This document shows positions 13,550 through 40,391 of a stretch of 40,391 bases of DNA, in pieces; positions within the stretch are counted from its first letter, which is position 1, and each line of letters opens with the position of its first letter. The DNA is taken from positions 1 to 40,391 of the forward strand of contig URXR01000002.1 in the NCBI GenBank assembly GCA_900551925.1. Direction: 5' to 3'. Origin of the DNA: an uncultured Mycoplasmatota bacterium (GTDB lineage Bacteria; Bacillota_I; Bacilli_A; RF39; UBA660). The notes under the pieces were generated by a model, which worked only from the letters and a program-made list of their open reading frames with translations, did no database searches and had not been told where the DNA came from. A program made the position numbers and the translations under genes.

Positions 13550-13579
13550 ACAAGTATCAGAAATGGTACTTGTTTTTTT
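13550..13579 (+). terminator. intrinsic terminator of the rhomboid gene
   Basis: ACAAGTA / TACTTGT stem followed by T7. Confidence 0.75.
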
Positions 13580-13598
13580 ATCTAATAAATTATATAAT
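13570..13598 (+). promoter_or_regulatory. sigma-A-like promoter (TTGTTT-17 nt-TATAAT) driving the orphaned 12-codon leader
   Basis: Consensus -10 at 13593-13598. A paralogous arrangement (TTGCAA-17-TATAAT) precedes the second leader at 40241-40269. Confidence 0.55.
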
Positions 13599-13633
13599 TA
13601 ATACATAATAAGACTAAGAAAGTAGTGAGAAAT

Positions 13634-13671
13634 ATGAAAAAACAAAAAGAACAAACTACAAAGGGGAGTTA
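13634..13671 (+). pseudogene. 5' fragment (ATG + 12 codons, MKKQKEQTTKGS) of the glycine-rich protein gene, cut off by the IS
   Basis: The reading frame runs into the IS terminal repeat and stops inside it. It joins in frame to 15081 onward if 13672..15080 is removed. Confidence 0.6.
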
Positions 13672-13707
13672 TGTCAATATTTGGTACAACATTTTGAGGG
13701 GGTTTTA
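13672..13707. repeat. IS terminal inverted repeat (orfB-proximal end)
   Basis: TGTCAATATTTGGTACAACATTTTGAGGGGGTTTTA pairs with the reverse complement of 15041-15080. Confidence 0.7.
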
Positions 13708-14573
13708 GAAGAAATTTGAGATTTTTCAAACTCAATTGGAGACATTCCCCCAATAGAAGAATGAATTCTCTTAGGGTTATAAAACCCCTCAATATAATCA
13801 AAAATAGTTTTGTAAGCATCTTCATAGTGATATAAAGTAGTATTATATATACATTCTTTTTTTAAAGTAGCATGGAAAGATTCTTGAGCAGCATTTTGAT
13901 CGCATGAATGATTAAGTTCTGTATAACTATAAAGACAATGATGATTACTTAAAAGCTTTCTATAAGATTTAGATCTAAATTGAGCACCTTTATCAGAATG
14001 AATGATTAAACCTGGTAAAGGTTTTCTTTTTTTAAAAGCAATGTTAAAAGCAATCTCGATGTTAACAGTTTTTTGATTTCTAGATAAAAACCAACCAACA
14101 ACTTTTTTACTAAAATAATCAATAAAAGAGATTAAATATAAAGTACCATCATAAACAGTCTTAATATAAGTAATGTCAGTAGTCCAAACTTGATTTATAT
14201 GCCATATATTTAAATTGATAATTAAGTTTTTAATTAAGGCTTTTTCTTCTAAAGTCATAGGAGATTTTCTATGTGGGAAGTTTTTAGTGTGGATACTTTT
14301 AATACCAAGGAATTTCATTTCATTAGCAATTTTCTTTTGAGAGAAAGAAAAGCCTTGATTTTTAAGTTCAATAGTGATTCTAGGGGCACCATATATACCA
14401 TTAGAATTCCAATAAATATCAAGAATTTTAATTAATAATTTAGCTCTTTTTTCTAGATTAATATGATAAAAATGTTTCCAGTTGTAGAAAGAATTTCTAG
14501 AAATGCCTAGGACTTTACATTGAGCAGCGATAGAATGAAATTTAGAGTTTTGTAAAATAGCAAGATAAATCAT
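13674..14573 (-). CDS. IS3-family transposase OrfB (DDE/RNase H-like integrase core), probably made as an OrfAB fusion by -1 frameshifting
   Basis: WTTDITYI (D), IHSDKGAQFRS (D) and NAAQESFHATLKKE (E), followed by YNPKRIHSSIGGMSP. The stop codon lies inside the terminal repeat. Confidence 0.9.
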   Translation of the reverse strand: MIYLAILQNSKFHSIAAQCKVLGISRNSFYNWKHFYHINLEKRAKLLIKILDIYWNSNGIYGAPRITIELKNQGFSFSQKKIANEMKFLGIKSIHTKNFPHRKSPMTLEEKALIKNLIINLNIWHINQVWTTDITYIKTVYDGTLYLISFIDYFSKKVVGWFLSRNQKTVNIEIAFNIAFKKRKPLPGLIIHSDKGAQFRSKSYRKLLSNHHCLYSYTELNHSCDQNAAQESFHATLKKECIYNTTLYHYEDAYKTIFDYIEGFYNPKRIHSSIGGMSPIEFEKSQISSKTPSKCCTKY

Positions 14574-14851
14574 TTTCCGTTTTTGATGTAAAATCCTAAA
14601 GTTTTTTTTAAAATATCATTGGTGTTCTCGAGTTCAGCAATTCTCTTTTTAAGCTTTTGAATGTGTTGTTCTGGAGAGATGTAGTCAGAGTCAAAAACTT
14701 TATTATTTTTATTATAAGCAGTAATCCACTTTTCAAGAGTTTTTAAAGGGACATGTAAATCATTAGCAGTTTTCAAAGTAGAATGTTTAGAAATAATAAC
14801 AAGTTCAGCAGCCATTTTTTTGAATTCATTGCTATAATAACTATTAGCCAA
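14570..14851 (-). CDS. IS3-family transposase OrfA (helix-turn-helix)
   Basis: 93 aa with TTG start 7 nt after GGAGGTGA. MAAELVIISKHSTLKTANDLHVPLKTLEKWI HTH and a leucine-zipper-like C-terminus. Confidence 0.85.
   Translation of the reverse strand: MANSYYSNEFKKMAAELVIISKHSTLKTANDLHVPLKTLEKWITAYNKNNKVFDSDYISPEQHIQKLKKRIAELENTNDILKKTLGFYIKNGK
14602..14609 (-). promoter_or_regulatory. programmed -1 ribosomal frameshift site (A-AAA-AAA within an A8 run)
   Basis: In the orfA frame the sequence reads TTA AAA AAA ACT. A -1 slip continues as NFRILHQKRKMIYLAIL, which is the orfB frame. This is the canonical IS3-family arrangement. Confidence 0.75.
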
Positions 14852-14914
14852 AAAATCACCTCCTTTAAAATAAAGATAAAGATAAAAAAGAATAAAATCA
14901 AGGAAAAAGGTATT

Positions 14915-14936
14915 TTACTTTCTTTAAAGAAAGTAA
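14915..14936. repeat. perfect 22-nt palindrome in the IS leader (TTACTTTCTTT|AAAGAAAGTAA)
   Basis: Read directly from the sequence. It lies between the terminal repeat and the orfA start. Confidence 0.9.
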
Positions 14937-15040
14937 AGGAAATTATAGACATGAAGATGTAGAAATGGTATTATAGATATATAGAAAAGTAGAAGAAAGG
15001 AAGACAGTTGTATGAAGAGAAATAAAGAAAAAGTAACTAA

Positions 15041-15080
15041 TGAAACCCCCTCTGAAAACTGTCCCAAAAATATACTAACA
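15041..15080. repeat. IS terminal inverted repeat (orfA-proximal end)
   Basis: The reverse complement is TGTTAGTATATTTTTGGGACAGTTTTCAGAGGGGGTTTCA. It shares TGT.A.TAT.TT..GG.ACA..TTTT..GAGGGGGTTT with the other end. Confidence 0.7.
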
Positions 15081-15096
15081 TCCAAGAAAAATAGAC

Positions 15097-17283
15097 TTGG
15101 GGGGGGGGTACTTTTACAAACAATTAAATAAAGATGTAAAAGAAATAAACAAAGTATTTCTATCTTTATTTAGCATGGGAATAATACTTGTTGCCATATA
15201 TGTAGGAGTGAGCATAACAAATAATTCATATGCTTTATTTACAGATACCCTAAAGGGAGAAAAAACTATCGAAGTAACAGTTCATAATGAATGGAATTTT
15301 GGATTTACTGGTGATGAACAAACTTTTATTGTACCCAAAAACGGCTATTATTATATAGAACTCGGAGGGGCTCAAGGAGGTTCCAACTATAGTGAAATTG
15401 AGTATGGAGGAAAAGGAACTATAACAAGTGGTTATATTTATCTTAATAAAGGAGAAACTTTGTACATTTATGTTGGAGAAAAAGGGAAACACGGTAGTAA
15501 TGTAGATCCCGCTTATAATGGTGGAGGCGGCCAAGGTGATGGGGTACTTTCCACTAATTTATATGCTACTGGAGGAGGAGCGACCGATATAAGGCTAACT
15601 AATGGAGATTGGGATGACATCTCCTCACTCATATCCAGAATAATGGTCGCTGGAGCTGGAAGTGGCTCATATGGTTTTTATACAAAAGGTGTTCCTGGAG
15701 GAGCATTATATGGTAATAATGGGTTAAGAACTTTAACGACTTATGAGACTTATGGGCACGGAGCAACTCAAACCAGTGGAGGTTCCAAAGGAGAAGTTAT
15801 TAATGCTGGATTGGATTGGTATGGTTCCACTGATGGAGGTTTTGGCTATGGAGGTGAAGGGCCTCTTAAATACGGAGGAGGAGGTGGCGGAGGCTACTAC
15901 GGTGGCGGAGGAGCCGGAGTTTCCTCAGCCAATGGTTCAAGTGGTGGCAGTGGTTCCTCATATATCTCAGGCTATGCCGGAGTAAATAGTGTTGAAGAAA
16001 ATACGACAATAACTCATACCAACCAAACTCTTCATTATAGTGGTAAATACTTTATCGGAGGAAAAATGCTTGAAGGACAAAATGAAGGCCATGGTTATGC
16101 TAAAATAGGATTTATAGGAGAAAAACCAGAAAAGAAAACTACTAAATTAAACAATGTCAGATATATAAAAAATTGTATAAGCCATAATAGTGTATATGAT
16201 TATAATAACTGGCTAGAAATAGAAGCCATAAAAGATGGAATAAATATAGCCAAAGGAAAGACAGTAACAGGAACAACTTCAGAACACACTTCATATCCTT
16301 ACTCTAGAATAACAGATGGTGATATAGATTATGAAAATTTTGCATCACCTTCAAGCTCTGCCTTAAATCAGTGTGTCACAGTAGACCTAGAACAAGAATA
16401 CAATTTAGATGAAATAGCAGTATGGAATTTTTTCGGTGATCAAAGAACTTATTATAACAATACTACCTCAGTATCAAGTGATAATCAAAACTTTACTGAA
16501 ATAATAACCGGAAATGCTATGCTAGAAACTAGCAATGGTCATAGAATAAATGCTTATACAGATACTTATAATGGTTACGTTTCAGATAATTTACTATTGT
16601 GGTACGATGGTTATGCTAACACAGGAACAAAAAAAGATTATACTATAGCAACTTGGAAAGATTTAAGTGATAATGATAATGATGGAACTTTAACCGAAGG
16701 AACTTGGGAATATGATAGCTTATTATTGGACGGAGATAACAATACAGTAGAAACTAATCTTGATGCTAAAACAACTTTGCCAACCGATGAAGATAGAACT
16801 CTAGAAATAACTTTCAAAATAAATAGTGTTCCGTATGATGAAAACACAAATGGCTATACCGGAGTTTTCTTTGGAGCAATTAATTATGGAGGAATGGGAA
16901 TAACTTGGATAAGAAATGTTTCCGCTAATTCTTATTCTATTAATGGTGTTACTAGAGCTAATGAAATAAGACAAGTAAAAATATTACACCAGACTTATCC
17001 CACTAAAATTATAACTTTAACCTATGTAAATAACCCCTCAAACAATAAAATACTATTTTATTTAAACGGAGAAAAAATAGGAGAAGATTTAAGCACAACA
17101 GGAAGTTATCCTAATGAAATAGGAAATATTGGTATAAATAAAGCTCAAGTACCTGGAGGAATAGAAAGTGGTAATTATGCTAACATTAATGTTTATAGTG
17201 CTAGAATCTATAATAAAGCTCTAACAGAAACAGAAATAAAAAATAACTTCTCATATGATAAAGAAAAATTTTATTTCAACTAA
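15097..17283 (+). CDS. membrane-anchored glycine-rich-domain (ALK/LTK GRD-like) protein with discoidin (F5/8 type C)-like and LamG/ConA-like C-terminal domains; native 5' end displaced by the IS
   Basis: TM helix VFLSLFSMGIILVAIYVGV. GRD motifs FGFTGDEQTFIVPKNGYYYIELGGAQGG, GGGATDIRLTNGDW...SRIMVAGAGSG, GGGGGGGYYGGGGAG, GGSGSSYISGYAG, GHGYAKIGFIG. ITDGD...QCVTVDLEQEYNLDEIAVWNF is discoidin-like. LLLWYDGY...ARIYNKALTETEIKNNF is LamG-like. The frame is closed 7 codons upstream and there is no SD before TTG 15097. Confidence 0.75.
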   Translation: MGGGYFYKQLNKDVKEINKVFLSLFSMGIILVAIYVGVSITNNSYALFTDTLKGEKTIEVTVHNEWNFGFTGDEQTFIVPKNGYYYIELGGAQGGSNYSEIEYGGKGTITSGYIYLNKGETLYIYVGEKGKHGSNVDPAYNGGGGQGDGVLSTNLYATGGGATDIRLTNGDWDDISSLISRIMVAGAGSGSYGFYTKGVPGGALYGNNGLRTLTTYETYGHGATQTSGGSKGEVINAGLDWYGSTDGGFGYGGEGPLKYGGGGGGGYYGGGGAGVSSANGSSGGSGSSYISGYAGVNSVEENTTITHTNQTLHYSGKYFIGGKMLEGQNEGHGYAKIGFIGEKPEKKTTKLNNVRYIKNCISHNSVYDYNNWLEIEAIKDGINIAKGKTVTGTTSEHTSYPYSRITDGDIDYENFASPSSSALNQCVTVDLEQEYNLDEIAVWNFFGDQRTYYNNTTSVSSDNQNFTEIITGNAMLETSNGHRINAYTDTYNGYVSDNLLLWYDGYANTGTKKDYTIATWKDLSDNDNDGTLTEGTWEYDSLLLDGDNNTVETNLDAKTTLPTDEDRTLEITFKINSVPYDENTNGYTGVFFGAINYGGMGITWIRNVSANSYSINGVTRANEIRQVKILHQTYPTKIITLTYVNNPSNNKILFYLNGEKIGEDLSTTGSYPNEIGNIGINKAQVPGGIESGNYANINVYSARIYNKALTETEIKNNFSYDKEKFYFN
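15099..15108 (+). repeat. G10 homopolymer within codons 1-4 of the remaining ORF (TTG GGG GGG GGG)
   Basis: Counted directly: two G at 15099-15100 plus eight at 15101-15108. Surrounding DNA is very AT-rich. Confidence 0.95.
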
Positions 17284-40240: not shown

Positions 40241-40269
40241 TTGCAATAAATATAAAATTTTTGTATAAT
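40241..40269 (+). promoter_or_regulatory. sigma-A-like promoter (TTGCAA-17 nt-TATAAT) of the second orphaned leader
   Basis: Its position relative to the leader ATG is about the same as the promoter at 13570-13598 (about 35-37 nt from the -10 to the ATG). Confidence 0.55.
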
Positions 40270-40306
40270 TAAAATGTATAAAAACTAAAGAAAGTAGTGA
40301 GAAAAT

Positions 40307-40344
40307 ATGAAAGAAAATAAAAAGCAAACTACCAAGGGGAGTTA
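40307..40344 (+). pseudogene. second 12-codon leader fragment (MKENKKQTTKGS), paralogous to 13634..13671 and again cut by the IS
   Basis: The upstream AGAAAGTAGTGAGAAA element, length and terminal AAGGGGAGTTA are the same as in the first leader. There are 6 nt differences, in 4 of the 12 codons. Confidence 0.6.
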
Positions 40345-40391
40345 TGTCAATATTTGGTACAACATTTTGAGGGGGTTTTAGAAGAAATTTG
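40345..40391 (-). mobile_element. first 47 bp (orfB-proximal end) of a second copy of the same IS3-family element, truncated by the window edge
   Basis: 47/47 identical to 13672..13718 (TGTCAATATTTGGTACAACATTTTGAGGGGGTTTTAGAAGAAATTTG). Confidence 0.85.

What the first reader, a model, noticed from the sequence alone, without database searches (positions are those of the whole stretch)
15099..15108. A G10 homopolymer lies in the first codons of the glycine-rich protein gene, a candidate slipped-strand phase-variation tract
Seen in sequence: ten consecutive G in a region that is otherwise about 70% A+T. The run encodes GGG in the reading frame of the long ORF. It sits 16 nt downstream of the IS end and upstream of the TM helix. 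Established knowledge: poly-G/C tracts of 8 or more in the 5' coding region of surface-protein genes are classic contingency loci in Neisseria, Campylobacter, Helicobacter and mycoplasmas. With G10 the body is in frame with both TTG 15097 and the reconstructed native leader. G9 or G11 would switch it off. G9 or G12 would instead fuse it to an ATG inside the IS (see the next finding).
Basis: partly seen in the sequence, partly recalled or inferred. Interest (0 to 1): 0.62.

Follow-up and report, generated by a model that had tools for sequence, protein, structure and literature searches.

The report
Poly-G on/off switch, currently off
The run of ten G's is real and is one of at least twelve identical slippage switches at the start of a family of secreted sugar-binding-type protein genes in an uncultured gut bacterium.

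Summary
G10 at 15099-15108 is confirmed. In this 1.08-Mb, 27% G+C genome, every G/C run of 7 or more (12 runs, all G9 or G10; 0.03 runs of 9+ expected) lies at the same place. That place is codon 10-15 of paralogous genes that encode a basic leader, a TM helix, an SYALF(T/S)D motif and an ALK/LTK-type glycine-rich domain.

The same tract sits at the same place in at least seven other species of the genus, at G10 to G13. Family members with no tract, or a short or interrupted one, almost always keep the frame. Long pure tracts are mostly out of frame (about 18 to 5), yet the bodies stay open for 300-900 codons.

Tract length differs between independent assemblies at orthologous loci:
- This gene: G9, G10, G11 and GGGGGGAGGG.
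- Paralog C7: G9, G10, G12 and G8TG.

This supports slipped-strand phase variation. No per-read or clonal data were available.

The native SD+ATG leader and the IS-borne ATG 15012 both need G9 or G12. G10 fits only TTG 15097, which has no SD. An IS3-family element splits the leader 15 nt upstream of the tract. MutS and MutL are present. Verdict: a new member of a known kind.

The parts
15099..15108 (+). Poly-G tract (G10), the slippage switch. It encodes GGG GGG GGG plus one extra G.
   Evidence: Ortholog lengths are G9, G10, G11 and G6AG3.
15087..15098 (+). 3' half of the native leader (AAA AAT AGA CTT = K N R L). It is conserved in most paralogs and sets the leader frame that needs G9 or G12.
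15084..15086 (+). AAG, the right copy of the likely 3-bp target-site duplication of the IS (left copy at 13661-13663).
   Evidence: The empty site ACTACAAAGAAAAATAGACTT is seen in L101, L103 and L105.
13664..15083 (-). IS3-family insertion sequence. It has orfA 14851-14570 (HTH_Tnp_1), orfB 14573-13674 (rve) and imperfect terminal inverted repeats of about 40 bp. It splits the leader 15 nt upstream of the tract.
   Evidence: (I2).
13634..13663 (+). 5' half of a family leader (ATG AAA AAA CAA AAA GAA CAA ACT ACA AAG) with its upstream promoter/SD region (about 13575-13633). By synteny it belongs to a different family locus from the gene body.
15012..15098 (+). Open frame that starts at an ATG inside the IS end (SD-like AGGAAG 8 nt upstream). 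It runs in the leader frame into the tract and gives a 756-aa fusion at G9.
14946..14974 (+). Outward-facing promoter-like site in the IS end (TAGACA-17-TATTAT with TG, 10 of 12 matches).
   Evidence: This is a consensus match only.
15097..17283 (+). 728-codon ORF as it stands at G10, starting at TTG with no SD. Parts: TM helix about 15154-15216, SYALFTD motif 15226-15246, ALK/LTK glycine-rich domain 15337-16113, then weak F5/8-type-C-like and further C-terminal modules.

Best explanation
The G10 run is a hypermutable poly-G tract that gates translation of a secreted or surface glycine-rich-domain protein by slipped-strand mispairing. It is one of at least 12 such tracts. All of them sit between a short basic leader (SD + ATG + 9-14 codons) and the signal/TM helix of a paralogous gene family.

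Gain or loss of one G during replication moves the body in or out of frame with the start codon. Each paralog can therefore switch independently, which gives a population with mixed surface repertoires. In this family G9 or G12 is ON. G10, G11 and G13 are OFF, with a stop about 6-10 codons after the tract.

The window's copy reads G10, so it is OFF. In addition, an IS3-family element has cut its leader off from the native promoter and ATG. The IS end offers a promoter-like site, an SD and ATG 15012 in the same frame as the native leader, so this copy would be re-expressed as a fusion only at G9 or G12.

Shown here:
- The tract, its restriction to this family, and the frames.
- The length differences between paralogs, species and independent assemblies.
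- The intact bodies downstream of out-of-frame tracts.

Inferred:
- Switching is fast and reversible within a lineage.
- The protein is surface-exposed or secreted.
- The IS-borne start is used.
For: (1) All 12 G/C runs of 7 or more in the genome are G9 or G10 and lie in the same leader context. About 0.03 runs of 9 or more are expected. The run-length distribution has a gap at 7-8 and a spike at 9-10.

(2) From the conserved SD+ATG, G9 gives a full ORF (C26). G10 gives a stop after 15-20 codons (C7, C9, C23, C69, C35, C44), yet the bodies remain open for 329-906 codons.

(3) The genus survey finds the same tract position in G003, G005, G006, G008, G010, G011, G013 and G014, with G10, G11, G12 and G13. 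Of the tract-free members whose start could be placed, all but one (G013_L073) are in frame. Short or interrupted versions are in frame where a start could be placed (GGGGAGGGGAGG, G6, GGGGGGCGGG). Long pure tracts are about 18 OFF to 5 ON.

(4) At orthologous loci: L101, L103, L105 and X6 have G10; L102 has G11; L104 has GGGGGGAGGG; a 903-nt X2 contig has G9. For paralog C7: G10 (own genome, X3), G12 (X1), G9 (X2), G8TG (X7). Short unitigs with G10 and G11 coexist in single runs.

(5) GGG is a rare Gly codon (7.8%), and tract-free relatives have no Gly-Gly-Gly. The run is therefore kept at the DNA level, not for the peptide.

(6) The frames for G8-G13 are computed explicitly.

(7) The body carries PF12810 (E 1.5e-38) behind a TM helix. 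A SipW-type signal peptidase is encoded in the genome.
Against: No raw reads were available; every run is held as Logan contigs. Within-population heterogeneity and reversibility are therefore not shown per read. Short unitigs across the tract cannot be assigned to one paralog.

G10 (OFF) is the mode at this ortholog in 5 of 8 assemblies, so switching is not so fast that every sample differs.

MutS and MutL are intact, unlike in Campylobacter, Helicobacter or mycoplasmas, which argues for moderate rather than very high rates.

This particular copy is IS-disrupted and may be silent at any tract length if the IS-borne promoter and ATG are not used.

Expression evidence is limited to two short metatranscriptome contigs on the gene body.
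Confidence: 0.8

Rival explanations
1. The DNA length is not the switch. G10/G11 tracts would be decoded by RNA-polymerase slippage or by +1 ribosomal slippage on GGG GGG GGG G. Out-of-frame genes would then be expressed constitutively at a low, stochastic level.
For: The length mode is G10 whichever frame G10 gives: it is ON in G010 L072 and L099 and OFF in L082 and most others. Most long tracts are out of frame in consensus assemblies while the bodies stay intact. From general knowledge, homopolymers of 9 or more are known substrates for transcriptional slippage.
Against: DNA length does differ between assemblies at the same locus. Both ON and OFF DNA states exist. About one third ON is what unselected DNA slippage alone predicts. 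No RNA data across the tract were obtained. The two mechanisms can coexist.
Confidence: 0.1
2. In this copy the tract is an inherited relic with no current role. The IS insertion has killed the gene, and the 728-codon frame from TTG is an accident.
For: The IS separates the body from the native promoter and ATG. TTG 15097 has no SD. At G10 neither real start is in frame.
Against: The body is intact and 99% identical to IS-free orthologs. The IS end carries a promoter-like site, an SD and an ATG in the leader frame. Two of the in-frame copies in this genome are IS-fused (C11 at G9; C16 at G10 with the second IS type). The gene body appears in two metatranscriptomes. This rival concerns only this copy, not the family-wide switch.
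Confidence: 0.08
3. The run is a sequencing or assembly artefact: a homopolymer error or two-colour-chemistry poly-G.
For: Homopolymer lengths are error-prone. One NCBI MAG shows GGGGGGAGGG and one contig end shows G4, both of which could be errors.
Against: The tract recurs at 12 loci in this assembly and in at least 7 other species' assemblies. It also recurs in more than 10 independent metagenome assemblies made with different assemblers. It is always embedded in matching unique flanks.
Confidence: 0.02

Closest known systems
Neisseria opa gene family (CTCTT repeats in the signal-peptide coding region); from general knowledge
   Same: A multigene family of surface proteins (about 11-12 copies). 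Each copy is gated independently by a slippage-prone repeat inside the leader or signal-peptide coding region. Most copies are off at any time. The organism is MMR-proficient.
   Different: Here the repeat is a mononucleotide G run, not a pentamer. The proteins are ALK-type glycine-rich-domain and lectin-module proteins of a Gram-positive-type, reduced-genome gut Bacilli lineage. No experimental switching data exist.
Poly-G contingency loci of Campylobacter jejuni and Helicobacter, and Neisseria pilC (poly-G in the 5' coding region)
   Same: Intragenic G8-G13 tracts in 5' coding regions. Plus or minus 1 G toggles the frame. Tracts are strongly over-represented for an AT-rich genome.
   Different: Those genomes spread tracts over many unrelated genes (LOS, capsule, flagellar modification, restriction-modification). 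Here every tract belongs to one paralogous family. Campylobacter and Helicobacter lack MutS/MutL mismatch repair; this organism has it.
Bifidobacterium breve UCC2003 sortase-dependent pilus G-tract slippage switch (PMC9187656, title and abstract seen)
   Same: A gut commensal Gram-positive organism in which an intragenic G-tract gives ON/OFF replication slippage of a surface structure.
   Different: That case involves two pilus clusters in a high-GC actinobacterium and was shown by maximum-depth sequencing. Here at least 12 paralogs are involved in a 27% G+C uncultured organism, and the evidence is only comparative.
   Same: An IS3-family element is found repeatedly at the same few bases of a repeated genomic sequence.
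   Different: The target here is the coding leader, 15-18 nt upstream of a poly-G switch. The IS end can supply a start codon in the leader frame.

Membership tests
Simple-sequence-repeat (homopolymeric tract) translational phase-variable locus | Uninterrupted homopolymer of about 8 or more nt inside the 5' coding region | tested here: met
   G10 at 15099-15108 lies 12 nt after the leader's KNRL codons and before the TM helix.
Simple-sequence-repeat (homopolymeric tract) translational phase-variable locus | A change of plus or minus 1 repeat unit toggles between a full-length ORF and early termination | tested here: met
   From ATG 15012, G9 and G12 give 756 and 757 aa; from the rejoined leader they give 741 and 742 aa. 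G8, G10, G11 and G13 stop within 22-40 codons.
Simple-sequence-repeat (homopolymeric tract) translational phase-variable locus | Tract length is polymorphic between strains at the same locus | tested here: met
   This gene shows G9, G10, G11 and G6AG3. Paralog C7 shows G9, G10, G12 and G8TG. These come from independent assemblies and Logan contigs.
Simple-sequence-repeat (homopolymeric tract) translational phase-variable locus | High-frequency, reversible switching within a clonal population | not testable with these tools
   Only contigs were available, not reads, and the organism is uncultured. Coexisting G10 and G11 unitigs in one run are suggestive but confounded by paralogs.
Simple-sequence-repeat (homopolymeric tract) translational phase-variable locus | Tracts are over-represented relative to base composition and the codon choice is non-random | tested here: met
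   12 observed against 0.03 expected. GGG is 7.8% of Gly codons.
ALK/LTK glycine-rich domain proteins (Pfam PF12810) | Match to the PF12810 profile above the gathering score | tested here: met
   133.6 bits against a cut-off of 24.5; residues 81-339.
SipW-cognate (TasA-type) signal peptide, TIGR04088 | Match to the signal-peptide HMM, and a SipW-type peptidase in the genome | tested here: inconclusive
   No NCBIfam hit at E <= 1. An archaeal/SipW-type signal peptidase I (TIGR02228, 102.6 bits) is encoded at C21. The resemblance of SYALF(T/S)D to the TasA motif is from memory.
IS3 family insertion sequence | Two overlapping ORFs (HTH orfA, DDE/rve orfB), terminal inverted repeats and a 3-bp target duplication | tested here: met
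   HTH_Tnp_1, and rve/rve_2/HTH_21. orfA and orfB overlap at 14570-14573. Inverted repeat I2. AAG is duplicated relative to the empty sites L101, L103 and L105.

The most novel reading that the evidence does not exclude
The poly-G tract may do two jobs. It is the frame switch, and it may also be the landmark that two or three diverged IS3-family elements use to insert 15-18 nt upstream. Such insertions are seen in different paralogs, strains and species. Each IS brings its own promoter-like site and an ATG in a defined frame: type 1 needs G9, type 2 needs G10. The IS would then act as a mobile promoter and start-codon cassette that re-wires which tract length means ON. That would be a two-layer (SSR + IS) variation system in a mismatch-repair-proficient, reduced-genome gut lineage.
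Probability: 0.2. Interest if true: 0.72.

Novelty: new member of a known kind. Interest (0 to 1): 0.5.

Why it matters
The result shows that an uncultured, small-genome gut Bacilli lineage devotes all of its long G/C homopolymers to a single family of secreted lectin-like proteins. The lineage occurs in chicken-gut, dust and sludge metagenomes, and its relatives occur in Hadza human-gut MAGs. This is the signature of opa-like stochastic surface variation in a commensal that cannot yet be grown.

For annotation, gene callers truncate or mis-start these genes: the database copies start at Met27 inside the TM helix. ON/OFF states must be read from the SD+ATG leader, not from the longest ORF.

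The finding also gives a concrete set of loci for measuring in-vivo phase variation directly from metagenomes.

Tried and rejected
- Read-level tract counts: every run that holds the locus is served only as Logan contigs, and no PacBio run was listed. Per-read heterogeneity could not be measured.
- The C26 paralog (G9, ON) could not be followed across samples. X1-X4 lack contigs across its tract, and in X1 an IS end sits in its leader.
- Loss of mismatch repair as an explanation for hypermutability is rejected. MutS and MutL are intact in this genome and in every genus genome of at least 90% completeness (8 of 8).
- The tract as part of the IS is rejected. IS-free paralogs and orthologs carry it.
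- The tract as a conserved Gly3 coding requirement is rejected. Tract-free relatives lack GGG, and GGG codons are rare.
- TTG 15097 as the real start is judged unlikely. It has no SD, and the TTG exists only because CTT precedes the tract in this species. Paralog C7 (CTC) and other species (TCT, TTC, GCT) have no such start.
- The strict DNA pattern scan over 30 relatives was too narrow and found only one other genome. The protein-based genus search was needed.

Full report
**Observation.** Window 15099-15108 is ten consecutive G. It is the only G or C run of 7 or more in the 40-kb window, and no shuffle reaches the observed count. The window is contig C2 of a 1.08-Mb, 79-contig genome with 27% G+C. 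The locus is held mainly by chicken-gut metagenomes, with some dust, sludge and soil runs. The nearest genomes are MAGs titled 'uncultured Bacilli bacterium' (Hadza gut) and 'uncultured Mycoplasma sp.'.

**The tract is a family feature.**
- A genome-wide scan finds 12 G/C runs of 7 or more: nine G10 and three G9. All are in one context: SD + ATG + 9-14 codons (mostly ..KKNRL), then poly-G, then YFYKQLNKDVKEINKVF, a TM helix and SYALF(T/S)D. A thirteenth copy starts at a contig end inside the run.
- The G/C run-length histogram is 4: 889, 5: 146, 6: 10, 7: 0, 8: 0, 9: 3, 10: 9, against 0.03 runs of 9 or more expected.
- GGG is only 7.8% of Gly codons.
- The body of the window gene carries an ALK/LTK-type glycine-rich domain (PF12810, 1.5e-38) and a weak F5/8-type-C-like module. 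About 2,100 database homologues were found, none of them named among the 120 listed.

**Reading frames.**
- From the conserved leader ATG, G9 or G12 gives the full protein. G8, G10, G11 and G13 stop within 22-25 codons.
- The same holds for the ATG at 15012-15014 inside the IS end: 756 aa at G9.
- Only TTG 15097, formed by the CTT codon plus the first G, is in frame at G10. It has no Shine-Dalgarno sequence. Paralog C7 (CTC) and other species (TCT, TTC, GCT) have no equivalent start.
- The window copy is therefore OFF as assembled.
- The observed IS-free orthologs confirm this directly. L101, L103 and L105 read ATGAAGGAACAAACTACAAAGAAAAATAGACTT + G10 and stop after 21 codons.

**Comparative evidence for a switch.**
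- In this genome, C26 (G9) is ON. C7, C9, C23, C69, C35 and C44 (G10) are OFF. All bodies are open for 329-906 codons.
- Across the genus, 15 of 17 genomes have the family. The same tract position holds G10, G11, G12 or G13 in at least seven other species.
- Family members with no tract, or with a short or interrupted tract (GGGGAGGGGAGG, G6, GGGGGGCGGG), are in frame wherever a start could be placed, with one exception: tract-free G013_L073. Long pure tracts are about 18 OFF to 5 ON, close to the 2:1 expected for unselected slippage.
- A pattern scan of 185,579 species representatives finds the poly-G + leader motif only in MAGs of this genus.

**Length differences at orthologous loci.**
- For the window gene, 99% identical orthologs have G10 (L101, L103, L105 and X6). 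L102 has G11, an NCBI MAG has GGGGGGAGGG, and a 903-nt contig of run X2 has G9.
- For paralog C7: G10 (own genome, X3), G12 (X1), G9 (X2) and G8TG (X7).
- Short unitigs with G10 and G11 coexist within single runs, but they cannot be assigned to one paralog.
- No raw reads were available, so within-clone heterogeneity and reversibility remain inferred.

**Context.**
- An IS3-family element (13664-15083, minus strand; orfA and orfB) splits the leader 15 nt upstream of the tract, with an AAG duplication relative to the empty sites.
- The same IS end, or a relative about 71% identical, lies 15-18 nt upstream of the tract in several places. These are other paralogs (C11, C16, and the leader halves at the starts of C3, C4, C5 and C16 and at the window's end), other strains (L102, X1, X7) and other species (G008, G003).
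- The IS end carries a promoter-like site (14946-14974, 10 of 12 matches plus TG), an SD-like AGGAAG and ATG 15012 in the leader frame.
- By synteny, the gene's true upstream neighbour (the PolC side) is at the start of own contig C16, which ends in leader half + IS end. The left flank in the window belongs to another family locus. The join across the IS is therefore either a recombinant or an assembly choice.

**Other tests.**
- MutS and MutL are intact in this genome and in all 8 genus genomes of at least 90% completeness. Hypermutability does not rest on loss of mismatch repair; in this respect the organism resembles Neisseria rather than Campylobacter.
- A SipW-type signal peptidase is encoded, but the SipW-cognate signal HMM does not hit.
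- Two chicken-gut metatranscriptomes hold short contigs on the gene body. None crosses the tract.

**Verdict.** This is a real poly-G contingency tract of a classical kind. It belongs to an undescribed multigene family, gated copy by copy, in an uncultured gut Bacilli lineage. Earlier notes of this scan on a sister tract (e1-3406370) and on the IS (e1-4335747) agree with what I found independently. The first-reader note e1-4335746, which says that removing the IS rejoins the gene in frame, is contradicted at G10.

Noticed in passing
window 13664-15083 and 40241-40391; own contigs C3, C4, C5, C16 (starts), C11 (start), C16:9535-9600; L102; L092 (G008); L097 (G003): IS3-family elements of at least two, perhaps three, diverged types sit 15-18 nt upstream of the poly-G tract. 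They are found in many different paralogs, strains and species, and always with the same IS end facing the tract. Occupancy differs between strains at the same locus: none, type 1 or type 2.
   Followed up: partly
window 13561-13663 versus own contig C16:41-2455 and L101/L103: In IS-free assemblies the gene is preceded by PolC and two small genes, not by GreA and the rhomboid as in the window. The syntenic flank lies at the start of own contig C16 and ends in leader half + IS end. Contig C2 is therefore either an IS-mediated recombinant or an assembly join across the repeat.
   Followed up: partly
window 14946-15014: The IS end holds an outward-facing promoter-like site (TAGACA-17-TGgTATTAT), an SD-like AGGAAG and ATG 15012. 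The K-rich start (MKRNKEK) resembles the native leaders (MKKQKEQ).
   Followed up: partly
L104 (NCBI MAG contig, tract GGGGGGAGGG); run X7 (C7 ortholog, GGGGGGGGTG): These are interrupted versions of the tract at total length 10. Such a tract would be locked in the OFF frame, unless these are consensus errors.
   Followed up: no
L073 (G013:C18, family member without a G tract): The leader ATGAAAAAAAGT.. carries an A7 run and is out of frame with the body. This may be a poly-A slippage site or an assembly error.
   Followed up: no
own genome C62:1829-4312 (mutS), C4:405-1922 (mutL): Mismatch-repair genes are intact in this 1.08-Mb genome even though it carries a dozen poly-G contingency tracts.
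   Followed up: yes
database proteins P0001, P0121-P0127: Gene callers start this gene at Met27, inside the TM helix, giving 702 aa. Public annotations of the family are therefore N-terminally truncated wherever the tract is out of frame.
   Followed up: partly
window 13550-13573: A terminator-like hairpin lies after the rhomboid gene, directly upstream of the family promoter and leader.
   Followed up: no
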